DNA of 64,000 bases from Akkermansia sp. (GTDB lineage Bacteria; Verrucomicrobiota; Verrucomicrobiia; Verrucomicrobiales; Akkermansiaceae). Positions 196 to 9,810 of this stretch are shown piece by piece (position 1 is the first letter of the stretch; each line of letters begins with the position of its first letter). The notes under the pieces are model-generated. The model was given only the letters and a program-made list of their open reading frames with translations, searched no databases and had not been told where the DNA came from. Both the position numbers and the translations under genes were made by a program. Location of the stretch: contig JAZRSQ010000093.1 of NCBI GenBank assembly GCA_045651585.1, positions 19,624 through 83,623 of the forward strand, in the 5' to 3' direction.

Positions 196-1401
196 ATGGC
201 AAAGGCAGCAGAAAAGGACGGGTGCGCCATGAAAGCCGGCAAAGGCTGCCTGGGATTTTTCCTGGGACCGGCCATCATGGTAATGGCTGTATACCTCTTG
301 TTCAACAATGAGGGCGACTACCTCAACACAGCGCAAGCTCTGGATGAATTGCAGCCCCTTGTGCAACATGTGGAAAATACAGCAACACCCGATGCTGCCC
401 TGGAGGGTAAACCCGTGCACCTGAGTGGTACGGCTACTACCGAAGATGTACTGACAGATGACACCTATGGGGTTCAGGCTCAGGGCATCATGCTTCGCCG
501 CAATGTGCAGTATGTGCAATGGGTAGAGAAAAAAACAAAGCGTACCGGCAGTGATACAAAGCCGACCTTCATGACGGAGGCTAAATACAAGCGCAGCCGT
601 GACGATGAGTGGATATATAGCTACACCCTCACTTGGGTAAATAACCCCATCAATTCCGCGACCTTTCACAACGAGCGTTACAGAAACGCAAACTACACCC
701 ATTACAAAGCGGATACGATCGAGCTGTGGGCCAAGAATGTGCAGCTGGGCAACTACAAACTGACCGATAACCAAATCCGCCGCATCGCTGCCGATGGTAA
801 GAGAGTGCCCCCGCAACAGGTACCCGAAGCCCTGCAGAAACACGCCATGCTCCATGGTGAGTACCTGTTCATCGGCCACGCGCCGGAGGGTAGCTCCTAT
901 TATCCGCTCGATCCGCAGGCTCCGAGTGTAGGCGATGTACGCATCTCATGGCGACAAACGAGCCCGCAACGCCCTGTCAGCTTGGTCGCCATTCAAAAAG
1001 CTAACAGCTTTGAGCCTTACACCGCGACCAACGGCGCCGTTATCGATTTGTTCTATACCGATACGCTGGGTATAACGCAGTGCTTCGATAAAGCGCGCTC
1101 AACCAACACAATGAACTTGTGGATGGTACGCATGGGTGGCTGGCTGATGTTCTGGGGCGCATTTGCCTGTATGCTACGACCACTGGACGGCATGGTGCCC
1201 GTGTGCCGCAAACTGGCAGAAGCCGGGGCCGAGGTGATATCCCTGTTATTGGGCACCATCTGCAGTTTGTTGACCATCTCTGTCTCTTGGTTATTCTGTC
1301 GCCCTGTTTTTGCAGTGCTGATGTTGCTTGCAATTATCGCCCTCATCTGGTTGCTCATGAAGAAACAAAGAAAACCGGTAAAAGCTGTCACCCGAAGTTA
1401 A
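196..1401 (+). CDS. TMEM43 (LUMA)/DUF1625-like membrane protein
   Basis: N-terminal TM (GFFLGPAIMVMAVYLLFNNEG), large soluble loop (EGKPVHLSG, LRRNVQYVQWVE, GDVRISW) and three C-terminal TM helices, the layout of bacterial TMEM43 homologs. Confidence 0.75.
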   Translation: MAKAAEKDGCAMKAGKGCLGFFLGPAIMVMAVYLLFNNEGDYLNTAQALDELQPLVQHVENTATPDAALEGKPVHLSGTATTEDVLTDDTYGVQAQGIMLRRNVQYVQWVEKKTKRTGSDTKPTFMTEAKYKRSRDDEWIYSYTLTWVNNPINSATFHNERYRNANYTHYKADTIELWAKNVQLGNYKLTDNQIRRIAADGKRVPPQQVPEALQKHAMLHGEYLFIGHAPEGSSYYPLDPQAPSVGDVRISWRQTSPQRPVSLVAIQKANSFEPYTATNGAVIDLFYTDTLGITQCFDKARSTNTMNLWMVRMGGWLMFWGAFACMLRPLDGMVPVCRKLAEAGAEVISLLLGTICSLLTISVSWLFCRPVFAVLMLLAIIALIWLLMKKQRKPVKAVTRS

Positions 1402-1426
1402 TCACTCCACGTTCGCGGCTGATGCC

Positions 1427-1705
1427 ATGAAATCATTTCCCCTATCACTCATCTTCTGCATTGCACCATGTGTGCAAGCAGTGGGTGTCGATTTGTACCA
1501 AGCTCAGCAGTATAGCACAGTTGTGACCCAGCAAAAGAAACACCCCTTCGGGGGACATGTACTCAGTCGCATGGGGCGCATGCTGACTTGGGCAAACTAC
1601 GCCAAACTCTCAGAAAAAGAGTTTGTTGACACGATTCTATACGAGCTCCACGAAGCTCGGACTTATCGAAAAAAACAGAAATCCAACCATCTTGATAATC
1701 AATGA
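1427..1705 (+). CDS. Small secreted hypothetical protein
   Basis: Signal-peptide-like N-terminus; its stop overlaps the next ATG (1702-1705), suggesting translational coupling. Confidence 0.5.
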   Translation: MKSFPLSLIFCIAPCVQAVGVDLYQAQQYSTVVTQQKKHPFGGHVLSRMGRMLTWANYAKLSEKEFVDTILYELHEARTYRKKQKSNHLDNQ

Positions 1706-1977
1706 ACATCAAACCCGTTAAAAAGTACTCAGGCATTCTGCCGGCTGCTGCTGCACTGTTGGGCAGCCTTGTGAGCGGTTGCGACAGACAGGCTGTTGTG
1801 GGCAGCGTGCCGAACCCGAATCCGAAAGATTTGCCGAGCCGAGTTCCCGGAGAGCCGCCTGAGGTGGCCCCCACCGAGCCGGAAAAACCGGCAGAAACGA
1901 CCACCGAAACCGAGCCGGAAGAAATGCCGCAGCTGCTCGGTGGCGATGTGCCGGTGGAAAATCTGAACATGGATTGA
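1702..1977 (+). CDS. Small Pro/Glu-rich lipoprotein, putative radical-SAM substrate
   Basis: Lipobox LVSG-C, PE/T-rich linker, motifs VVGSVP and LLGGDVP; directly upstream of the rSAM gene. Confidence 0.75.
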   Translation: MNIKPVKKYSGILPAAAALLGSLVSGCDRQAVVGSVPNPNPKDLPSRVPGEPPEVAPTEPEKPAETTTETEPEEMPQLLGGDVPVENLNMD

Positions 1978-1996
1978 TTGAGTCCTGATACTATTG

Positions 1997-3112
1997 ATGC
2001 GCAGGCCTTTACAGCTGACCTTGTGCCTGACGCACGATTGCACGCTGCGTTGCCGCTATTGCTACGCAGGGCGTAAGTACGCGCATGCCATGAGCCGCGA
2101 AACGGCGGAGCGTGGCATGGACATCGGGCTGGCAGAGGCCGTGCGCACCGAGCGCGGCGTGGACTTGTCATTTTTCGGGGGTGAGCCCTTGCTGGAGTGG
2201 GATTTGCTGCAGCATTGCTGCAACTACCTCAAACAACAGGCAGCCGAGCAAGGAGTGCGCGTGCGTTTCGGGATTACCACCAATGGCACATTGCTGACCC
2301 GCAAGCGATTGGAATGGCTGGCCGAGCAGGATTTCTTGGTCGGGCTTTCCGTCGATGGCTCCCCCGCCATGCACGACCTGAACCGCTGCCATGCCGATGG
2401 GCGAGGCAGCCATGCCGAGGTAGCCGCCGCGCTGGAGCTCATGCAGCTGCACCCTACCCTGCGCAGCAAAGTCATCTGCGTGGTAAACCCGGCAAATCAC
2501 CACTTATTAGTGGAGGGTGTGCAGTGGTTACACGCGCACTATCGCGGTAATATAGGGCTCAATTTCGACTTCTGGAGCGAGTGGAGCGACGCTCAATTTG
2601 AATCGCTGAGTACCCAGCTGGAGCTGTTGCAGCACCTTATGCTCAATTCCTACCGCTGTGGGCAGCCCATACGCGTGGCAAACTTCGAGGATAAAATGCG
2701 CAGCGCTCTGTTGCCCCCCGACAGGCCCTGCGCTCAGTGCAACATCGGCGAGCAGGAGATTGCGGTATCGGTCGATGGCAATCTCTTCCCCTGCTCCCGC
2801 TTGGTTGGCGAAGGAGATAATCCCGCCCTCACCTTCGGCGATGTTCATAGCGGCATTAACCGAGCAAAACAACAGCTCATCATTGCACAGCGTGGGAATG
2901 CCACCCCGGAATGCAAAGTCTGCGCCCTGCGCCACCGTTGCATGAACTCCTGCGGCTGCACCAACTACGCCGGCTCCGGTCACTTCAACCGCGTGACTCC
3001 CTTCCTCTGCAATCTGGAGCAGACTATCATCCGCCTGACAGATGCTCTGGTATCGCAACTCTGCAGCGAGCAAAACGAAACACTGCAGCGCCGCCTCGCA
3101 AGCCATTTGTGA
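1997..3112 (+). CDS. Radical SAM enzyme with SPASM domain
   Basis: CTLRCRYC (CxxxCxxC), FFGGEP, TNGTL, SVDG; SPASM cysteines C..C..G...DGNLFPC and CxxCxxxxxCxxxCxC. Confidence 0.92.
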   Translation: MRRPLQLTLCLTHDCTLRCRYCYAGRKYAHAMSRETAERGMDIGLAEAVRTERGVDLSFFGGEPLLEWDLLQHCCNYLKQQAAEQGVRVRFGITTNGTLLTRKRLEWLAEQDFLVGLSVDGSPAMHDLNRCHADGRGSHAEVAAALELMQLHPTLRSKVICVVNPANHHLLVEGVQWLHAHYRGNIGLNFDFWSEWSDAQFESLSTQLELLQHLMLNSYRCGQPIRVANFEDKMRSALLPPDRPCAQCNIGEQEIAVSVDGNLFPCSRLVGEGDNPALTFGDVHSGINRAKQQLIIAQRGNATPECKVCALRHRCMNSCGCTNYAGSGHFNRVTPFLCNLEQTIIRLTDALVSQLCSEQNETLQRRLASHL

Positions 3113-3229
3113 AAAAAGCCCCTGCTCTCGAGAATAGTCCAGTTTCAGCAATCCATTCTCTTCCCGATAATTTGCAAATATCGCGAGGGGCAACACAGAG
3201 TATAATAAGAGTTTTCGCACATGCTAAAC

Positions 3230-6202
3230 TCATCCCTCAATTATTGTATCTTTATCAGAGTTCTCATTTAACCACCTTTGGACTTTCCGAACGCATTCAT
3301 CAATATTATCCAACACCTCGTATGCCCAGAAACGCATCACAGTCCAGCCATTCGCTGTTAAGATGTTGTTGCGAATTTGGTCAGATGAAATGTCATTTTC
3401 TGTCCACAGAGTATGGTATTTTTTACCATCAATTTCAATGTTTAACTTCCTATGTTCATCAATAACAATGGCAAAGTCTAATGAGTATCTATATTCAATA
3501 TATTGAGGATGCACATTCGTAATGCCTGCGTCGGTCAAAGCAGCATAGAAACGCCTTTCTATAGAAGAAGCGAGTTCTCCATTAGAAATAACCGAATAAA
3601 TTTGGAGCGGGGTATGTTTTATATCTTGGACATAGTTAGCCAAATCGCAAAGAAGAGGGACGTCCTTGCAATTTGAACAATAATGCAAGTCTCCAACTAT
3701 GATTAACTTACTTCGAGCCCTAGTAATGGCGACATTAAAAATATTTTCTTGTTTGCGCAGAAAAGAGCGAGTTTGAGCCAACGCCCCATGTGAAAGAACG
3801 GGGGACATAATGATGATGTCCTTTTCATCGCCCTGAAACTTGTGAGTAGTATCAATCAGTAAACCTTTTTCCGATATGTTAACCCAGATATTTTTGTTCT
3901 TATTTACCAAGCCCTTAATATAATTTGCCTGTTTTCTAAATGGGGTAACAACACCTATTGAGCCTTGAAAACAATCCTTGCAAATGATAGTCTCTAATTC
4001 ACGAACTACTCTTCGGGCTTCAGCCTTGTTGTATGCGCTTCCATCGAAAGGCCTCTCAGTCAATCCAACCACATGTTTCCATACGATACCAGACTCCCGC
4101 GGTATATAGTGTTCCAAAAAGGCAGGATTTGTAGCGCAACGCAAATTATCAGCGTAAAAGTGATGATTTGAAAATTGTATAATTTCCGGATGCGAACGAT
4201 AATGATTAAGTAACAAATGCGGTTCAGTTACAGCAGGAAGAGCTAAGTCGTACAATGAATTGCTAATATATGAAAAACGAAGTTGCTCATCTCCGACTCC
4301 GTACTGAGATCGCAGCTCATCATTTTCTGCAACGGATAAATTTGAAACATGCCGAAGTTGCTTCGGGTCTCCCACAATTACAGCATTCCTCGCTCTATAC
4401 AGGAGAGGAATGGCCGAGGCAATATCACATTGGCTCGATTCATCAAATACGACGTAGTCAAAGAAATTAGCCTGCAATGGAATGCGATTCCTTGCGGATA
4501 ATGATGTTACTGCCCAACAAGGTATGTAATTTCTGATTTTAACTAAATCTGTAGCTTTAAAAAGATTGATTGCCCCAGATGCCTGTGCCTGCCTGATTTG
4601 TGCCAGCAAATTCGATATACTTACTCGATCTGAGAGACGGGAGATAGTCGTTTTTCTCCTTATAAAGAGCTTCCAATACGTGTTGGAGTGTTCTATTATA
4701 CTATGGTTGAGTTTCTTTTCTTCTTCATACAGCTCTTCCAGAGAGCCGAGCGTTCTCAGTTGACGTAATGCCGAATAATATTGCTTAATTTTTGCTATTA
4801 AAGCGACTCTTTTTTCAATTTTTTCAGCTACACTCCTATAATAAATAGTATGTTCTCTTTTGTATCTTGATTTTTTTGGGTCAATTTTAACCCCCACTAT
4901 TTTACAGAAATTCCACAATCTAACAAGGTGTTGGTTGTACCTTTCGGAGATTCTCCTTTTGCAGAAAAACCAAATAAACTTATTCCATAACTTAGACCAA
5001 TTAACTTTACTTAACTCACTGATATAGTCTTTGAGGAATTCGAGTTCTAACCTTAAATCGGTTGTATTATATTTTCTTATCTTACGAAATAGAGTCGGAT
5101 TTGTTTGTCGAAAATGGTATACTTCCCGTTCTAAAGAATCTACCGTATTTCGTTGTTCAATTAATGCTCTAATCTTTTTTAGAACGTCCTCATGTAGAGA
5201 ATGGGCGTTTTCAAATTGTTGTTTCGCGACTTCAAGTTCCTCTGAAAGATTTTTCTTTCTCTTATTAGCCAGTATACTGGCTATAAATTCCGTCAATCTT
5301 TCAGCATAGTGATTGTTTCCAAGGCGAAGCAATGAAGGTGTTTTTGTTAAGGCATTGATTCTCTTCTCCACTATATCAATTGCTTTGTTATTCTTGCTTA
5401 CCACAAGAACACTTTTGCCATTCAGAACAGCATTAATCACAAAGTTGGTTATTACCTGCGATTTTCCCGTTCCCGGAGGCCCTGTAATAATGCTTATCTT
5501 GCGAGAGAAACAACTTCTAATAGCGCCAAGTTGCTCTTGGTTTAACGGAGAAACCTGATAAATGAAGTCGCAGCTTGTACCAATATCATTAGCAACCTTA
5601 TTGATAAAAATAAGTTTTTCCAAAGATGTTCCAGATGATTCTAAATTTGCGCCTGTTGATAACTGCTCTAACTCAATAGCTAATCCTTTTGTATAATTGA
5701 AAAATCCAGCATCACTAAATAATATCCCCTTATCAAAAACGCTCCCCGATTTAGCGGTGTTTTCCTGCAGATTACTCCATGGAACAGATTTCAATACGCC
5801 ATTAAGTAATTGTGCGAAACCATTGAATGACAAACCGAATTCTTCCCCATCTGTAACATTACTATAATCCGCATCCTCAAGTAATAGCCCCTCTTTATCC
5901 AATTGTTTTACATTTAGCGAAGCCGAATGTAAGTTTATAGTCAGTTTTCGCTCCGAGACAAAAGCAGAAAAAACAAATATAGGTATATACTCACCTTTGT
6001 CGTTTATGTAACATGGATACCCTACGTTCAAGTCAACACCATCTTGCAAAACAAAGTGTTCAATTTCATCGGTAAGAGGAATTTCTTCAACAAGACCTCC
6101 GTTTCCATCCATAGGGAAAGCGTGTCCGCTTTTTAGAGCAACACTCAGCTCGTCCTTTTTTAAGCATTCACGGTAATAATTACACAGATCCGAAAACTTC
6201 AT
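3230..6202 (-). CDS. SF1 (DNA2/NAM7-like) helicase fused to a C-terminal DUF559/Vsr-like endonuclease
   Basis: GPPGTGKS, VFDESSQ, VGDPKQL, HYRS, FQGDEKD, NVAITRAR; C-terminal E..RFY...DF...IEIDG..YH...GWTVMRFW; AT-rich. Confidence 0.88.
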   Translation of the reverse strand: MKFSDLCNYYRECLKKDELSVALKSGHAFPMDGNGGLVEEIPLTDEIEHFVLQDGVDLNVGYPCYINDKGEYIPIFVFSAFVSERKLTINLHSASLNVKQLDKEGLLLEDADYSNVTDGEEFGLSFNGFAQLLNGVLKSVPWSNLQENTAKSGSVFDKGILFSDAGFFNYTKGLAIELEQLSTGANLESSGTSLEKLIFINKVANDIGTSCDFIYQVSPLNQEQLGAIRSCFSRKISIITGPPGTGKSQVITNFVINAVLNGKSVLVVSKNNKAIDIVEKRINALTKTPSLLRLGNNHYAERLTEFIASILANKRKKNLSEELEVAKQQFENAHSLHEDVLKKIRALIEQRNTVDSLEREVYHFRQTNPTLFRKIRKYNTTDLRLELEFLKDYISELSKVNWSKLWNKFIWFFCKRRISERYNQHLVRLWNFCKIVGVKIDPKKSRYKREHTIYYRSVAEKIEKRVALIAKIKQYYSALRQLRTLGSLEELYEEEKKLNHSIIEHSNTYWKLFIRRKTTISRLSDRVSISNLLAQIRQAQASGAINLFKATDLVKIRNYIPCWAVTSLSARNRIPLQANFFDYVVFDESSQCDIASAIPLLYRARNAVIVGDPKQLRHVSNLSVAENDELRSQYGVGDEQLRFSYISNSLYDLALPAVTEPHLLLNHYRSHPEIIQFSNHHFYADNLRCATNPAFLEHYIPRESGIVWKHVVGLTERPFDGSAYNKAEARRVVRELETIICKDCFQGSIGVVTPFRKQANYIKGLVNKNKNIWVNISEKGLLIDTTHKFQGDEKDIIIMSPVLSHGALAQTRSFLRKQENIFNVAITRARSKLIIVGDLHYCSNCKDVPLLCDLANYVQDIKHTPLQIYSVISNGELASSIERRFYAALTDAGITNVHPQYIEYRYSLDFAIVIDEHRKLNIEIDGKKYHTLWTENDISSDQIRNNILTANGWTVMRFWAYEVLDNIDECVRKVQRWLNENSDKDTIIEG

Positions 6203-6226
6203 AAAAGGAATATCATTATAAAGTAT

Positions 6227-7210
6227 TCACTTCCACAGCGGATGGCTTTCCCAGTGTTCTGGCAAGCCCATTTTGTGCAGAGGAATACCATTCTGCCGGG
6301 AATCTTGCAGGAATTGCTGCATGCGCACGTACCACTGCGAGGAGGGTGCTACCTGTTTGAGCAAATAACGGCAAATGAACAGCAGTGGCGCAAGCTGGGC
6401 CTGAGAATGGAGCAAGGAGGGAGCTCCGGCCAACTTAGCGGTAGGCTTAACCCATTTTCCGGCTTTGTCGGAATACACAAAATCCCACGGCAAGGCGGGC
6501 GTATTATTCATACGGGGAACTGCCATGAATATTTTGTTCCAGATGCGAGCATGGTGAGCACAGTCATTGCGCAAAACACGCAATGAAGATAGCCATGTAT
6601 ACAAAGAACCTGTGTCGATTCCCCATTCACGAGCAATGGCCTTTCTGATACTCTTGTCGGAGTGGGAATAGAAGTAGACTACAGTACCAAACTCCATCTC
6701 TCCCACTGCCATCCAAAGAGGCAGATAGTCATGTTTGTCTCCATAGGTATTGAAGAAATGGTCGACAGAATCCTTACCTGTTAACAAAACACTCCCCTGT
6801 TTATTTTTAGGAATACGAACTCTATCTAAGCACTGCATATACCCTTTCCATTTGGGGAAATACGTCTGGCTTGCATAAGCAAAAGGAGATTGATTTGCAG
6901 TGTGATGATACGCAATACGACTACGAAGCGCAACCTCTATGCGCTCAATGGCGTCTATCATCAGAAGTCGCAGTTTGCGGTCAAAGAGGTAATGATTCCA
7001 TACTTTATCCAACGTTACACCGGGAGTATAATTGTCCTCAATTTTTCCGTTTTGATTTCTAACCCGAAAAGGATGTAAGTATGCACTGAAACGATAGTAG
7101 CCCACCTGCGTCAACCGTCTGGCTAAAATCGTAGCATCCGCAACAAGTCCGCGTTTTTGAAGAAGCGCTACTTGTTTAGAAATTGAGAGATGCGGCTTTC
7201 GGTATTCCAT
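6227..7210 (-). CDS. Abi family (AbiD/AbiF-like) HEPN protein
   Basis: Likely start MEYRKP at 7210; GYYRFSAY, Y.FDRKLR...DAIERIEVALR, HEPN RNDCAH (RxxxxH) followed by HARIWN. Confidence 0.88.
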   Translation of the reverse strand: MEYRKPHLSISKQVALLQKRGLVADATILARRLTQVGYYRFSAYLHPFRVRNQNGKIEDNYTPGVTLDKVWNHYLFDRKLRLLMIDAIERIEVALRSRIAYHHTANQSPFAYASQTYFPKWKGYMQCLDRVRIPKNKQGSVLLTGKDSVDHFFNTYGDKHDYLPLWMAVGEMEFGTVVYFYSHSDKSIRKAIAREWGIDTGSLYTWLSSLRVLRNDCAHHARIWNKIFMAVPRMNNTPALPWDFVYSDKAGKWVKPTAKLAGAPSLLHSQAQLAPLLFICRYLLKQVAPSSQWYVRMQQFLQDSRQNGIPLHKMGLPEHWESHPLWK

Positions 7211-7221
7211 ATAAAATAAAA

Positions 7222-7282
7222 AACCCTCCCCATGTGCGCAGTTGAAGGAATCAACGGATTCCAACCCTAAGCGGGGGAGGTT
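7222..7282 (-). ncRNA. Putative structured RNA (abiF-type leader/antitoxin) upstream of the Abi gene
   Basis: Nested hairpin CCTCCCC...GTTG-GAATC-CGTT-GATTC..CAAC...GGGGAGG between a perfect promoter and the ATG. Confidence 0.6.
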
Positions 7283-7292
7283 ATCTAAGCTC

Positions 7293-7320
7293 ATTATACA
7301 TGAAGTACATCATTTGTCAA
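7293..7320 (-). promoter_or_regulatory. Sigma70 promoter of the RNA-abi-helicase unit
   Basis: TTGACA (7320-7315) - N16 - TATAAT (7298-7293), perfect hexamers. Confidence 0.8.
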
Positions 7321-7540
7321 TAGGAGGGAACGAATAAAAATAAAAAAACATCGACCTTAAACACACTTGTGATTTCGTAACAATGACACAAACCATGAGT
7401 TAATATTAAAAGTTGAAGAGAGTGCTTAGAGCCGGCATTGAGACCTACTGCTACAATCTGACTGAGGCATGGTATGTAAACCCAGCATTCGGGATGTATA
7501 GCAAACAGCTACCTCCAGCTCACAAGCCTTATTTTTGGCA

Positions 7541-7568
7541 TTGACTTCGGTCAGGGCATGTTTATAAT
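7541..7568 (+). promoter_or_regulatory. Sigma70-like promoter upstream of the PIN-like gene
   Basis: TTGACT - N16 - TATAAT. Confidence 0.6.
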
Positions 7569-7819
7569 ACCCGCAAGCAACACAAGGAGCATTCTGTTCG
7601 GGGCTCCGAAGTTTGAGATATTCACTCTTCTTCCGTGTTGGCAGGTGTTTGGCTGAAATGATGAGGATATTCGCCCTTCTTTCTCGCACCTGCGCTTACA
7701 GGAAGAAGGGATACCGCACAAAACGCCCCTATGCTCGCCCACTATACAGGCGCATGCGTATTTTCTGCGATACTTTCCTTCTTGTTGTCCACCAATGGAA
7801 ACAAATAAAGGAAATTAAC

Positions 7820-8344
7820 ATGATAAACATTCAAGCCGCCGAAAAGTCGGCCCACCGCGAGTTCACCAAACTCATTCAATCACACGCTGCAGCTATCTAT
7901 ACAGACACCTGTTTTCACCTGCCGTTCATCTTGCGCCACTGTCGCGAATTAAGGCAGAATGGGCAGCGGGTTAAAGTCACAAAATCCGTACAGCTGGAGC
8001 TGAACGATAAAAACAAAAAGCCCTGGGCCAAAAAGAAGCTGAACACACTCCGTAAATCCGGCAAATGTTTTGAACTTTTACCCGGCAATAAACAGGAGAG
8101 AAAAAAAATCTATGTCCAGAAAAAAGCGGCCTATGCGGACGAGGCTTTTGAAGACCTGTTCAGCCAAGAAACACAGAAGAAAAATGTGCTTCTAACAGCT
8201 GATTACGCGCTTGCAAAAAAGATTGCCGTCATGGTCAGCACCGTTGCAGTCTTCTTTCAATATTCAACAGCCGACTCGGGCACACACGTCGTACTGTGGT
8301 CAGATTACCAAAAACTTACTGAGCAAAAAGCACTTTCTGTTTGA
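7820..8344 (+). CDS. PIN-like domain protein (putative ribonuclease)
   Basis: AAGGAAA then ATG at 7820; acidic PIN-like motifs IYTDTC, V..EL, YADEAF, VLLTADYALA. Confidence 0.55.
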   Translation: MINIQAAEKSAHREFTKLIQSHAAAIYTDTCFHLPFILRHCRELRQNGQRVKVTKSVQLELNDKNKKPWAKKKLNTLRKSGKCFELLPGNKQERKKIYVQKKAAYADEAFEDLFSQETQKKNVLLTADYALAKKIAVMVSTVAVFFQYSTADSGTHVVLWSDYQKLTEQKALSV

Positions 8345-8415
8345 CACATCGAGGTACACTGTGCTATCCTGAGCTCAGACAAGCGCTGACCATCAACATA
8401 CGCTACCGACTGACT

Positions 8416-9810
8416 ATGAGCCCGGATATCTATCAAACCATCGAATTGGCATTTTCTCTGCTGGGGGTCTTTGCTGCGCTGCTGTGGTTACGCCCCGGTA
8501 AGCAGGCTGCCGCACGCTATGCATTTATTGTGCTGCCGGTTGCCGGTCTTTGTGCCATGCTGCATCAAAACCCGGGAGAATATGGAGCGGCGATCCTGCG
8601 GCACTTGGTATATATCATGCCCTTGTTCGTCTTTTTGCTGGGGAAATACATGTTGGGTTGTACCCGCCGGCGTGCGTTCCTGGCATTGGGTGTGTATGCA
8701 CTGGTGAAGGCACTGGGCGCGCTTGCCCATATTCCGCTGAATATACTTGCGGACTGCCCGGTATCGCTCACTCTGTTGACAGGGTTCGGCTTCTACCTCG
8801 AGCTGGTATGGGCTTGGCTGTTTATCTGGTTTTGTACCCGCAAGGAGGCCGGCATCAGTCGCACAGACAGGATTTATGTTGCAGCTGCGGTTATGACCGT
8901 ATATGGCAGCTTAGTGGGTTGTTGGCCTTTACTCCGTTCTCTGCCCCTCCACTTAACCGACCTAACGAGTGAGGACATACCGCAGTGGGTGTCACAGGTG
9001 CTCTATTTCGTGCCGATGCTCCTGAATACGCTGTGTTTTGCTGCCGGGCTGCGCTATGTTCTGCACCAATCATGGGTACGCACAGTCTGTACCACGGCTG
9101 CTGCCATATTCGTTATGAACGCACCCGTGTATGCTTACCAACACTTCATGCAACAAGCGGAAGAAAGGAGTTTTCAGCAAAGAGAAGAACTGATAGGCGC
9201 CATCGAAGAGGGCAACCGATCGAAAGTACAAGAGCTCCTGAGCCTCGGCGTGGATGTCAACCGTCCCCTCATTGGCCCCAATGACAAAAATGGTGAAATA
9301 TCCATTTTCTACCCACTCATTCATGCAACAGCCCGCAACCACATCGGCATAATGCAAGACATACTGGCAGCCGGAGCGGATGTCCATGTACGGCGTGAAA
9401 ACGGGGACACTGCGCTGATTGCAGCCGCCATTGAGAGTAACCCGGAAACGATTCAACTCCTGCTGCAAGCCGGTGCAGATGTCAATGCCACCAGCTACGA
9501 TGGCACGACAGCGCTGCACACTGCATCTCTGCCGGAAACACCGGAAGAGCGCCCCGGAGCACTTGCCGCCATGCGTTTGTTGTTAAAGCATGGAGTACCT
9601 GTCAATGCACAGGATATCTACGGCGATACCGCGTTGATACAGTGTGTACGAGATAACTTTACCGAAGGAGCACGCCTGCTACTGGAGTACTCGGCCGATC
9701 CGACGCTGCGAGATAAAGACGGTAAGTCGCCCTTGGAATATGCCGAGCAGAAAGGGCTCAACGAAATGGCAGAAATGCTGAGGGCAGCTCTGCAGCAAGG
9801 GGCTCAATAA
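8416..9810 (+). CDS. Polytopic membrane protein with C-terminal ankyrin repeats
   Basis: About 8 TM segments, then repeats GDTALIAAA, GTTALHTA, GDTALIQC, GKSPLEYA. Confidence 0.85.
   Translation: MSPDIYQTIELAFSLLGVFAALLWLRPGKQAAARYAFIVLPVAGLCAMLHQNPGEYGAAILRHLVYIMPLFVFLLGKYMLGCTRRRAFLALGVYALVKALGALAHIPLNILADCPVSLTLLTGFGFYLELVWAWLFIWFCTRKEAGISRTDRIYVAAAVMTVYGSLVGCWPLLRSLPLHLTDLTSEDIPQWVSQVLYFVPMLLNTLCFAAGLRYVLHQSWVRTVCTTAAAIFVMNAPVYAYQHFMQQAEERSFQQREELIGAIEEGNRSKVQELLSLGVDVNRPLIGPNDKNGEISIFYPLIHATARNHIGIMQDILAAGADVHVRRENGDTALIAAAIESNPETIQLLLQAGADVNATSYDGTTALHTASLPETPEERPGALAAMRLLLKHGVPVNAQDIYGDTALIQCVRDNFTEGARLLLEYSADPTLRDKDGKSPLEYAEQKGLNEMAEMLRAALQQGAQ

What the first reader, a model, noticed from the sequence alone, without database searches (positions are those of the whole stretch)
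1702..3112. Radical SAM/SPASM enzyme paired with a small lipoprotein bearing hydrophobic-Gly motifs
Seen: a 91-aa lipoprotein (MNIKPVKKY..., lipobox, disordered PE-rich stalk) carries two similar motifs, VVGSVP and LLGGDVP, and lies 19 nt upstream of an rSAM-SPASM gene. Established: rSAM/lipoprotein gene pairs are known, and SPASM spliceases modify XYG motifs in such substrates. Here the mature lipoprotein has no Tyr, Trp or His, and no Cys apart from the lipidation site. Inference: a RiPP-like modification of a surface lipoprotein with different chemistry (e.g. at Leu-Gly).
Basis: partly seen in the sequence, partly recalled or inferred. Interest (0 to 1): 0.65.

Follow-up and report, generated by a model that had tools for sequence, protein, structure and literature searches.

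The report
Radical SAM enzyme with tagged lipopeptide precursor
A gut Akkermansia-type bacterium encodes a small, disordered, lipid-anchored peptide directly in front of an iron-sulfur "radical SAM" enzyme that very probably modifies it before export. The same unnamed pair recurs in many related bacteria, and the peptide has none of the residues this enzyme class normally cross-links.

Summary
Window 1702-1977 encodes a 91-aa lipobox protein. A 371-aa radical SAM/SPASM enzyme with no RRE domain starts 19 nt downstream (1997-3112).

A third, weaker copy is R47-VPG50-EPP.

Of 80 genomes carrying a relative of the enzyme (83-40% identity), 53 have one to nine tandem small genes directly upstream. 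These genomes are Akkermansiaceae, other Verrucomicrobia, Lentisphaerales and Kiritimatiellaeota. The small genes share three features:
- an N-terminal tag, M-K-I-x-P-x8-[YF]-P, placed ahead of the export signal;
- a lipoprotein or twin-arginine signal;
- repeats of P-Q-x-[LV]-x-G-[DE]-V-[PA].

Flanking genes differ between genomes, so the cassette has only these two components.

Neither protein reaches any NCBIfam or Pfam family threshold. PapB is the best hit, at 212 bits against a cutoff of 340. Most partners have only the lipidation cysteine and many have no aromatic residue, so thioether, cyclophane and splicease chemistry do not fit.

My best reading is a radical-SAM counterpart of the recently described RiPP-lipoprotein hybrids. 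The signal peptide's N-terminus would act as the leader, and the motif would be the site of an oxidative modification whose nature is unknown. Nothing here shows that a modification occurs.

The parts
1702..1977 (+). Gene for a 91-aa tagged pre-prolipopeptide, the presumed substrate
   Evidence: ORF. 28 homologues with conserved ends. pN/pS 0.19-0.24. Predicted disordered. It is the only ORF in the 64-kb window that matches the tag HMM (E 3.4e-10; next best 0.62).
1702..1743 (+). N-terminal tag MNIKPVKKYSGILP (family consensus M-K-I-x-P-x8-[YF]-P), ahead of the hydrophobic signal core; proposed leader and recognition element
   Evidence: Alignment of 50 partner N-termini. An HMM built from them finds almost only genes directly upstream of the rSAM. 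The same tag heads Tat-signal partners (L078, L084, L086, L079), an AT-rich MAG partner (L087) and a Cys-rich peptide with no signal peptide in a multi-rSAM cluster (L091).
1744..1782 (+). Signal-peptide hydrophobic core and lipobox L-V-S-G-C27, the lipidation and signal peptidase II site
   Evidence: Read from the sequence. Weak NCBIfam hits fall only on lipoprotein signal regions. A helix at residues 15-20 is the only structure in the model.
1789..1812 (+). Motif copy 1: Q30-A-V-V-G34-S-V-P37
   Evidence: Q30 and G34 are invariant and P37 is >=90% conserved among 29 homologues. It matches the family logo. In most relatives it lies 6-10 residues after the lipobox Cys.
1840..1860 (+). Motif copy 2 (weaker): R47-V-P-G50-E-P-P
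   Evidence: Regex and logo match. Conserved as [RQ]-[VL]-P-G-E-P-P in close relatives.
1927..1959 (+). Motif copy 3: P76-Q77-L-L-G-G81-D82-V-P84-V-E86
   Evidence: P76, Q77, G81 and D82 are invariant; L79 and P84 are >=90% conserved. It is the best match to the family logo P-Q-x-L-x-G-[DE]-V-[PA]-x-E.
1997..3112 (+). Cytoplasmic radical SAM/SPASM enzyme, 371 aa, no RRE domain and no signal peptide (alternative TTG start at 1994)
   Evidence: Pfam Radical_SAM and Fer4_12. The best NCBIfam hit is PapB, 211.7 bits against a cutoff of 340. AF2 model pLDDT 91.7. Foldseek TM-scores: CteB 0.82, anSME 0.79, ChlB 0.78.
2039..2062 (+). C15-x3-C19-x2-C22 radical SAM cluster motif
   Evidence: Invariant in 20 relatives ranging from 72% to 32% identity.
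2729..3010 (+). SPASM domain with nine invariant Cys: 245, 248, 266, 306, 309, 315, 319, 321 and 338. This is enough for two fully Cys-ligated auxiliary [4Fe-4S] clusters.
   Evidence: In the profile-to-PDB alignment, C245 aligns to anSME C255 but to a Leu in CteB.
196..1401 (+). TMEM43-like membrane protein. It is syntenic with this lipoprotein subfamily only and is probably not part of the system.
   Evidence: Pfam PF07787, E 1.6e-47. It lies upstream of the lipoprotein in L007, L008, L011 and L026, but not in other clades.

Best explanation
This is a two-gene maturation cassette for a lipid-anchored, ribosomally made peptide.

Shown by sequence and comparison:
- A small, disordered, exported protein and an RRE-less radical SAM/SPASM enzyme are inherited together across Akkermansiaceae and other bacteria of the PVC (Planctomycetes-Verrucomicrobia-Chlamydiae) group.
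- There are often several tandem copies of the small gene, and no other gene is conserved alongside.
- The small proteins share an N-terminal tag (M-K-I-x-P-x8-[YF]-P) ahead of the signal peptide, an SPII or Tat signal, and one to five copies of P-Q-x-[LV]-x-G-[DE]-V-[PA].

Inferred mechanism:
1. In the cytoplasm the enzyme docks on the tag, which plays the part of a RiPP leader fused to the n-region of the signal peptide.
2. It abstracts a hydrogen atom at or next to the invariant Gly of the motif.
3. It completes a two-electron oxidation, using its two auxiliary clusters as the electron sink.
4. The modified precursor is exported by Sec (by Tat in distant lineages).
5. Lgt and LspA lipidate C27 and remove the signal together with the tag. 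No dedicated protease or transporter is therefore needed.

The reaction itself is unknown. The partners lack Cys and aromatic residues, so I expect chemistry on aliphatic, Gly or carboxylate-adjacent carbons. Candidates are modification of the Leu/Val next to Gly, oxidation at Gly C-alpha, or activation of the carbon next to the Asp/Glu carboxylate as PapB does. I do not expect a thioether, a cyclophane or tyramine excision.
For: Conserved pairing:
- 53 of 80 genome loci have 1-9 tag-bearing small genes directly upstream on the same strand. Three more have divergent look-alikes.
- Akkermansia glycaniphila has nine copies.
- Flanking genes are unrelated between loci: TMEM43, DUF4236, RND efflux, SecA, PHO4, Opp, HisG, fucosidase.

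Tag:
- In about 700 kb of flanks and in the 64-kb window, the tag HMM hits almost only these genes.
- The tag also heads Tat-signal partners, partners of rSAMs only 33% identical (L087; L092-L096), and a Cys-rich RiPP-type precursor without a signal peptide (L091).

Motif and substrate:
- The motif is enriched 9- to 45-fold over shuffles; the logo is.
- Mature peptides can be as short as 17-18 residues and still keep the motif (L060-L066).
- The substrate is predicted disordered.

Enzyme:
- It is cytoplasmic, with a full SPASM domain and a CteB/anSME/ChlB-like fold.
- PapB is the best family hit but falls below its cutoff.

Precedents:
- The logic of a RiPP routed through the lipoprotein pathway: DAG-RiPPs (PMC13056109).
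- SPASM enzymes acting on aliphatic residues next to Gly in short repeats: TvgB/TigE (PMC10878394).
Against: - There is no biochemical or mass-spectrometric evidence that anything is modified.
- No RNA data were found; only DNA metagenomes hold the region.
- A nested clade of 17 rSAM relatives sits beside an MsbA-like ABC transporter with no partner within 4 kb. Adjacency is therefore not obligatory.
- The motif is degenerate. 29 of 85 partner representatives have no site above my PSSM threshold, and that PSSM was seeded with a regular expression.
- The position after the Gly is Asp or Glu in only about half of the sites.
- The motif could be a functional periplasmic element rather than the modification site.
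- Lipidation is inferred from the lipobox alone.
Confidence: 0.55

Rival explanations
1. The two genes are neighbours but not enzyme and substrate. The rSAM would act on another protein or small molecule. The small lipoprotein would be an accessory or unrelated envelope protein, and its motif would serve a periplasmic function.
For: One clade of 17 relatives (55-60% identical) has no adjacent partner and sits in a housekeeping context. No direct evidence of modification exists. The motif is degenerate.
Against: The pair recurs in unrelated contexts down to 33% enzyme identity. Tandem multi-copy arrays with a conserved N-terminus and a variable remainder are typical of precursor genes. Conservation of a cytoplasm-exposed n-region tag is hard to explain by export alone, and the same tag heads a classical Cys-rich precursor in L091.
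Confidence: 0.13
2. The enzyme is a PapB-like thioether former that uses the only cysteine, C27. It would link C27 to the adjacent invariant D28 (PapB accepts Cys-X0-Asp) or to D82. This would block lipidation, so the product would be a cross-linked protein that is not lipidated.
For: PapB is the best family match. PapB activates the carbon next to a carboxylate and accepts CX0-6D motifs (PMC9413430). C27, D28 and D82 are invariant in the close subfamily.
Against: Across the family the residue after the Cys is mostly Gln, and also His, Glu, Ser, Thr or Lys. Four partner representatives have no Cys at all, and the Tat-type partners lack a lipobox. The lipobox is canonical and conserved, as expected for a site that is used. 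The family has the extra Cys (C245) that would fill the open auxiliary-cluster-I site which in CteB (as I recall; not checked here) binds the substrate thiol.
Confidence: 0.08
3. The target is the N-terminal tag itself, not the mature part. The enzyme would modify the pre-signal tail, for example at the [YF]-P. The purpose would be to gate export or to make a bioactive fragment derived from the signal peptide.
For: The tag is the most widely conserved element of the partners, including roughly 300-aa partners that lack the Gly motif. An earlier AI note raised this idea (e1-1522126).
Against: The aromatic residue of the tag is replaceable: Y, F, L or I in L014, L021, L022 and L029, and shifted in the window's subfamily. 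Signal peptides are normally degraded after cleavage. Invariance of positions 1-5 fits a binding element at least as well as a target.
Confidence: 0.07
4. The enzyme is a redox-neutral epimerase that converts L-Val or L-Ile in the motif to the D form, giving protease resistance in the gut.
For: The motif has a conserved beta-branched residue at +2, Val 58%. As I recall, rSAM epimerases act on Val and Ile (not checked here); EpeE appears only as a distant fold match.
Against: The fold match to EpeE is weak, TM 0.43, against 0.82 for CteB. A full two-cluster SPASM domain with nine invariant Cys is typical of net-oxidative enzymes.
Confidence: 0.07

Closest known systems
PapB/PapA (freyrasin) ranthipeptide system, NCBIfam NF047865
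   Same: It is the best-scoring family over the full length (residues 8-332 against model positions 5-328 of 330), of comparable length. Both are SPASM enzymes acting on short repeated motifs in which an acidic residue is prominent.
   Different: The score is 211.7 bits against a cutoff of 340. PapA has six Cys-X3-Asp motifs and the product is a Cys-Asp thioether. Here the mature peptide has no free Cys, and the precursor carries an export and lipidation signal.
CteB (SCIFF/thermocellin maturase, PDB 5WGG/5WHY)
   Same: It is the closest solved structure by sequence (profile E 5.8e-56) and by fold (TM 0.82).
   Different: CteB has an N-terminal RRE domain; the match starts at its residue 99. 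Where the family has invariant C245, CteB has a Leu. As I recall (not checked here), its auxiliary cluster I has an open site for the substrate thiol. Its substrates are Cys-rich.
DAG-RiPPs: RiPP-lipoprotein hybrids such as DybA/DybH and NedA (PNAS 2026, PMC13056109)
   Same: The overall logic is the same. A cytoplasmic enzyme modifies a precursor whose signal peptide carries a lipobox, and the housekeeping lipoprotein pathway then lipidates the peptide and removes the signal.
   Different: The enzymes there are MNIO (DUF692) proteins acting on Cys motifs. The terms 'radical SAM' and 'rSAM' do not occur in the paper's main text. Here the enzyme is an rSAM/SPASM protein and the core has no Cys.
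rSAM/lipoprotein system TIGR04133 / TIGR04134 (catalogued, chemistry unknown)
   Same: The concept is the same: an rSAM/SPASM gene paired with small lipoprotein genes. According to earlier AI notes these often occur in tandem.
   Different: Neither protein matches. TIGR04133 is not among the 25 best rSAM hits, and TIGR04134 gives no hit even at E<=10. According to earlier notes those lipoproteins keep an X-Tyr-Gly-x-Pro motif, whereas this mature peptide has no Tyr.
TvgB/TigE cyclopropylglycine synthases (PMC10878394; PDB 8VPO)
   Same: They are RS-SPASM enzymes that modify an unactivated Val or Ile next to Gly in short repeats (TVGG, TIGSVS). Compare VVGSVP here.
   Different: Their defining GYW motif, which supplies a Tyr ligand to auxiliary cluster I, is absent from all 20 family members checked. 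The fold match is weaker, TM 0.66. Their precursors are not exported lipoproteins.
Anaerobic sulfatase-maturing enzyme (anSME, PDB 4K36-39)
   Same: It is of similar size (370 aa), the match covers the enzyme from its N-terminus, and it acts on a protein before export. The family's C245 aligns to anSME C255. Fold TM is 0.79.
   Different: The score is 105 bits against a cutoff of 349. The partners have no C/S-x-P/A-x-R sulfatase motif and no sulfatase domain.

Membership tests
Radical SAM / SPASM subfamily (general) | CX3CX2C cluster motif in a partial TIM barrel | tested here: met
   C15, C19 and C22 are invariant. Pfam PF04055 scores 51.6 bits against a threshold of 29.5. The model fold matches CteB and anSME.
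Radical SAM / SPASM subfamily (general) | C-terminal 7-8 Cys SPASM motif (C-x9-15-G-x4-C ... C-x2-C-x5-C-x3-C ... C) | tested here: met
   C248-x12-G261-x4-C266; C306-x2-C309-x5-C315-x3-C319; C338; plus C245 and C321. All are invariant. The Pfam SPASM model itself scores only 16.8 bits, below its threshold of 21.5.
PapB family ranthipeptide maturase (NF047865) | Score at or above the curated cutoff of 340 bits | tested here: not met
   The score is 211.7 bits. The best PapB match among 34 family representatives is E 1.2e-72; by comparison with this protein's 1.6e-62 at 211.7 bits, that is still well below the cutoff.
PapB family ranthipeptide maturase (NF047865) | Substrate with Cys-Xn-Asp/Glu motifs that become thioethers | tested here: not met
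   The mature peptide has only the lipidation Cys. 48 of 90 partner representatives have a single Cys and 4 have none.
rSAM/lipoprotein system TIGR04133 / TIGR04134 | The enzyme matches TIGR04133 | tested here: not met
   It is absent from the 25 best of 70 NCBIfam hits, so it scores no better than the weakest hit listed (57.3 bits).
rSAM/lipoprotein system TIGR04133 / TIGR04134 | The lipoprotein matches TIGR04134 | tested here: not met
   No hit at E<=10 for the window protein or for three diverse partners.
DAG-RiPPs (RiPP-lipoprotein hybrids, PMC13056109) | The precursor has an SPII signal and lipobox, and a cytoplasmic modifying enzyme is encoded next to it | tested here: met
   Lipobox V-S-G-C27 follows a K-rich n-region and a hydrophobic core. 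The rSAM has no signal peptide and starts 19 nt downstream.
DAG-RiPPs (RiPP-lipoprotein hybrids, PMC13056109) | Experimentally shown modification plus diacylglycerol and N-acyl groups on the N-terminal Cys | not testable with these tools
   This needs expression and mass spectrometry.
DAG-RiPPs (RiPP-lipoprotein hybrids, PMC13056109) | The modifying enzyme is an MNIO (DUF692), as in all described examples | tested here: not met
   The enzyme is an rSAM/SPASM protein. The terms 'radical SAM' and 'rSAM' do not occur in the paper's main text.
Cyclopropylglycine synthases (TvgB/TigE) | Strictly conserved GYW motif supplying a Tyr ligand to auxiliary cluster I | tested here: not met
   There is no GYW in the window enzyme or in 19 relatives. 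The criterion comes from PMC10878394.
Anaerobic sulfatase-maturing enzymes (TIGR03942) | Score at or above 349 bits, and a sulfatase substrate with C/S-x-P/A-x-R | tested here: not met
   The score is 105.5 bits. The partner is a 91-aa disordered peptide without that motif.
Spliceases (PlpX-type, X-Tyr-Gly excision) | Tyr-Gly in the core as the excision site | tested here: not met
   The mature peptide has no Tyr, and 56 of 85 partner representatives have no Tyr after the signal. The criterion is from my own knowledge of the splicease literature.
Triceptide / cyclophane maturases (XyeB, GrrM, ChlB) | An aromatic residue in a three-residue motif that becomes a cyclophane | tested here: not met
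   The mature peptide has no Trp, Tyr, Phe or His, and 36 of 85 partners lack Trp, Tyr and Phe. The NCBIfam models score 59-82 bits, far below their cutoffs.

The most novel reading that the evidence does not exclude
This would be the first radical-SAM class of lipoprotein-pathway RiPPs, and it would carry a reaction new to SPASM enzymes, acting on a core with no Cys and no aromatic residue. In this reading the enzyme reads a leader built into the n-region of Sec/SPII or Tat signal peptides. It then oxidises the P-Q-x-L-x-G-[DE]-V-P motif at an unactivated position. Possible outcomes are a Leu/Val-derived ring or desaturation next to Gly, a C-alpha cross-link on the invariant Gly, or Gly C-alpha oxidation leading to backbone cleavage and amidation. 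The last would turn multi-motif precursors, many of which have Gly followed by Lys or Arg, into several lipid-anchored or released peptides.
Probability: 0.3. Interest if true: 0.8.

Novelty: new variant of a known kind. Interest (0 to 1): 0.62.

Why it matters
RiPP-lipoprotein hybrids were described only in 2026, and only for MNIO enzymes. This cassette suggests that radical SAM enzymes use the same route, with the signal peptide's N-terminus doubling as the leader. That arrangement would explain why no protease, transporter or RRE domain is needed.

The substrates lack every residue type that characterised SPASM peptide maturases cross-link. The reaction is therefore likely to be new and is directly testable with a two-plasmid co-expression.

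The family is common in Akkermansiaceae of herbivore guts and in other PVC bacteria. Such modified lipopeptides could therefore be an unrecognised component of the cell envelope or of the host- and microbe-facing surface of a group of great interest to microbiome research.

The tag also gives a simple sequence handle for finding further substrates genome-wide.

Tried and rejected
1. Membership in named families. No NCBIfam or Pfam model accepts either protein. None of 34 diverse family representatives approaches the PapB cutoff.
2. Thioether, cyclophane and splicease chemistry. I rejected these as the family's reaction because the partners lack Cys and aromatic residues.
3. Cyclopropyl synthase membership. 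Rejected because there is no GYW motif.
4. A third conserved component such as a protease or transporter. The flanks of ten PVC loci hold unrelated housekeeping genes.
5. The 92-aa ORF at 1427-1705 as a second precursor. It is the internally deleted remnant of a secreted ankyrin protein of roughly 385-410 aa, which is intact in L011, L007 and L008.
6. Promoter and terminator scans. Nothing rose above shuffled expectation.
7. Expression evidence. Only DNA metagenomes from ruminant guts hold the region, so co-transcription is untested.
8. Literature. Searches for rSAM plus lipobox, lipoprotein, Akkermansia, Verrucomicrobia or signal peptide found no description of this pair.
I therefore could not test whether tag-bearing genes occur elsewhere in this genome, or in genomes of the partner-less clade.
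10. The first metagenome scan with a 14-sequence alignment failed for lack of a conserved stretch. A 6-sequence alignment worked.
Full report
**What is in the window**

On the + strand, ORF 1702-1977 encodes a 91-aa protein. Its sequence is MNIKPVKKYSGILPAAAALLGSLVSGC|DRQAVVGSVPNPNPKDLPSRVPGEPPEVAPTEPEKPAETTTETEPEEMPQLLGGDVPVENLNMD. It has a Lys-rich n-region, a hydrophobic core and a canonical lipobox (V-S-G-C27).

A 371-aa protein begins 19 nt downstream, at ATG 1997 (a TTG lies at 1994), and ends at 3112. This second protein carries C15-x3-C19-x2-C22 and matches Pfam Radical_SAM and Fer4_12.

Its best NCBIfam hit is the PapB ranthipeptide maturase model. The hit covers the full length but scores 211.7 bits against a curated cutoff of 340. 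All other peptide-maturase models score lower still.

The enzyme has no N-terminal RRE domain. Matches to RRE-bearing maturases start at about their residue 80-100. It also has no signal peptide.

The mature lipoprotein has no Tyr, Trp, Phe or His and no Cys other than C27.

**The small gene is real and its motifs are conserved**

I found 28 homologues of the lipoprotein. In their alignment C27, D28, Q30, G34, P72, P76, Q77, G81 and D82 are invariant. The Pro/Glu-rich middle varies in sequence and length.

The two motifs lie in the same register: Q30-A-V-V-G34-S-V-P37 and Q77-L-L-G-G81-D-V-P84. A third, weaker copy is R47-V-P-G50-E-P-P.

Against close relatives the gene has pN/pS of 0.19-0.24. 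AlphaFold2 with the 29-sequence alignment predicts no fold, with pLDDT 58 and pTM 0.12. The only structure is a helix in the signal core. The protein is thus peptide-like rather than a domain protein.

**The pair is conserved, and the partners form a family**

A scan of one genome per species gave 576 stretches encoding relatives of the enzyme, of which the best 80 loci were kept. These are 83-40% identical and come from Akkermansia and Akkermansiaceae MAGs from ruminant, horse and rabbit guts, A. glycaniphila, other Verrucomicrobia, Lentisphaerales and Kiritimatiellaeota.

Most loci have a small ORF on the same strand directly upstream. The N-termini of these ORFs align to a shared tag, M-[KND]-[IV]-x-P-x8-[YFL]-P. 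The tag is followed by a hydrophobic stretch and, usually, a lipobox Cys.

I built an HMM from that tag and searched all ORFs in the loci:
- It hits genes in 53 of the 80 loci.
- Nearly all hits lie in the array immediately upstream of the rSAM.
- Copy number ranges from one to nine, with nine in A. glycaniphila.
- In the 64-kb window the only hit is the lipoprotein (E 3.4e-10; next best 0.62).

In the more distant lineages the tag is followed by a twin-arginine-type signal (…YPSRRQF…; L078, L084, L086, L079) rather than a lipobox.

Flanking genes are unrelated from locus to locus. They include TMEM43-like, DUF4236, RND efflux, SecA, PHO4, Opp, HisG and fucosidase genes. The unit is therefore precursor(s) plus enzyme, with no dedicated protease or transporter.

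A maximum-likelihood tree shows that 17 loci without a partner form one nested clade. In that clade the rSAM lies beside a divergent MsbA-like ABC transporter gene. Adjacency is therefore ancestral but was lost once.

**Reach of the family**

An exhaustive profile search found 381 representative clusters at E<1e-30, mostly proteins of roughly 350-400 aa. Of these, 33 were sampled; with the window enzyme, the best PapB match among the 34 was E 1.2e-72, well short of the cutoff.

A partner of an rSAM only 33% identical, from an AT-rich MAG, has the same design: MKIIPEIDEKKGFYP…LTGC…ALNGEVAPVY…ILMGDIAPIYPE.

A metagenome scan seeded on that enzyme found further tag + signal + motif partners, such as IALGGDIAMPEE, NIAGGIPAFIPEE, VQLDGDVAYP and VRLRGDVAVDP. 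It also found roughly 300-aa tag-bearing partners of another type. At the edge of the family it found classical SCIFF peptides.

In a multi-rSAM cluster (L091, enzyme 27% identical) a similar tag, MKKIQPVTDYTAPQFPE, heads a Cys-rich peptide that has no signal peptide. This is the best evidence that the tag is a RiPP-type leader rather than an export feature.

**The motif**

Among 85 non-redundant partners:
- Q-x-[LIVMP]-x-G occurs 117 times, against 12.8 +/- 3.3 in shuffles.
- [LIVMP]-x-G-[DESKT]-[VIF]-[PA] occurs 42 times, against 0.9.

The logo, with the Gly at position 0, is P(-5) Q(-4) R(-3) L/V(-2) G/P(-1) G(0) D/E/S/K(+1) V/I/P(+2) P/A(+3) x E/P(+5) P(+6). Distant lineages show G-[DE]-[VI]-A-x-[EP]-P.

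The PSSM was seeded with a regular expression, and 29 of 85 partners have no site above my threshold. The logo is therefore indicative only.

In most relatives the first copy lies 6-10 residues after the lipobox Cys. Some mature peptides are only 17-18 residues long and still keep the motif, for example CQQEPPVQILGGVPAECK.

**The enzyme**

The AF2 model is confident (pLDDT 91.7). It superposes best on:
- CteB (TM 0.82);
- anSME (TM 0.79);
- ChlB (TM 0.78), whose deposited structures are complexes with its precursor ChlA or its leader region;
- TigE (TM 0.66) and the epimerase EpeE (TM 0.43), which match less well.

Nine cysteines beyond the SAM cluster are invariant. In the profile-to-PDB alignment the family's C245 aligns to anSME C255 but to a Leu in CteB. 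Both auxiliary clusters can therefore be fully Cys-ligated. This contrasts with my recollection of CteB, where auxiliary cluster I has an open site that binds the substrate thiol (not checked here).

This is weak evidence, but it fits a substrate that is not a thiol. A complete two-cluster SPASM domain also points to a net oxidation rather than a redox-neutral epimerisation.

**What the chemistry is not, and what it might be**

Of 90 partner representatives, 48 have only the lipobox Cys and 4 have none. Of the 85 scored, 36 lack Trp, Tyr and Phe. Thioether, cyclophane and Tyr-excision reactions therefore cannot be the family's common reaction.

The GYW signature of cyclopropylglycine synthases is absent. 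Those enzymes still provide a precedent for SPASM chemistry on Val or Ile next to Gly in short repeats (TVGG, TIGSVS; compare VVGSVP here).

I therefore commit only to an oxidative modification at or beside the motif's Gly. The exact reaction is open.

**Comparison with what is known**

- RiPP-lipoprotein hybrids (DAG-RiPPs). The logic of cytoplasmic modification followed by the housekeeping lipoprotein pathway was demonstrated in 2026, but only for MNIO enzymes acting on Cys motifs. The terms 'radical SAM' and 'rSAM' do not occur in that paper's main text (PMC13056109).
- The catalogued rSAM/lipoprotein system TIGR04133/TIGR04134. It does not match either protein here.
- Earlier AI notes from this scan report PapB-like, RRE-less rSAM enzymes whose partners share a short tag ahead of the signal peptide (e1-1522126, e1-3050858). 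I reached the same conclusion independently from the loci above. I treat those notes as agreement, not as evidence.
- Literature searches found no description of this pair.

**Limits**

Nothing here shows a modification, lipidation, localisation or expression. Only DNA metagenomes hold the region.

**Verdict**

The reaction remains unknown.

Noticed in passing
window 1427-1705 (+): The 92-aa ORF whose stop overlaps the lipoprotein start (ATGA) is an internally deleted remnant of a secreted ankyrin-repeat protein. Only the signal peptide and the last ~70 residues remain. The gene is intact, at roughly 385-410 aa, in L011 (2468-3697), L007 and L008.
   Followed up: yes
window 196-1401 (+): A TMEM43-like membrane protein (PF07787, E 1.6e-47) lies upstream of this lipoprotein subfamily in four relatives. 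In L026 the TMEM43 and lipoprotein genes converge on the rSAM from the opposite strand. A functional link is untested.
   Followed up: partly
window 3230-7294 (-): An AT-rich block (GC 0.32-0.47, against about 0.55 in the flanks) starts right after the rSAM gene. It holds a 990-aa SF1 helicase fused to a DUF559-like domain and a 355-aa Abi-like protein. It looks like an inserted defence island and is already noted by other readers.
   Followed up: no
L076 (Akkermansia glycaniphila strain Pyt) 951-3888 and 5403-8765: The tag HMM hits nine ORFs upstream of the rSAM. One (951-1544, 197 aa) is a longer, weak hit. The rest are short lipopeptide precursors, several ending in ...KDKK. A 1120-aa SecA homologue lies immediately downstream.
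   Followed up: partly
L034-L068 clade, e.g. L063 2026-5110: Seventeen Akkermansia MAGs carry a 55-60% identical rSAM with no partner gene within 4 kb. It sits next to a divergently transcribed MsbA-like ABC transporter gene. Whether the substrates are encoded elsewhere is unknown.
   Followed up: partly
L108, L119, L122-L127 (metagenome loci), ORFs directly upstream of the rSAM: A second partner type: proteins of about 300 aa with a similar N-terminal tag (e.g. MKIRPVQTYPAPGYPT), a membrane anchor and a conserved VAPIFxHGxGRGAxGCV block. The three tested (L119, L122, L126) have no Pfam match.
   Followed up: partly
L091 769-4908: A cluster of at least four rSAM/SPASM genes with a 78-aa Cys/Trp/Tyr-rich precursor. 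Its N-terminus (MKKIQPVTDYTAPQFPE) resembles the tag but lacks a signal peptide.
   Followed up: no
L001 5713-5982 (-) against 5686-5985 (+): The public gene call at the lipoprotein locus of a close relative is on the wrong (antisense) strand. This family is therefore probably under-annotated in databases.
   Followed up: partly
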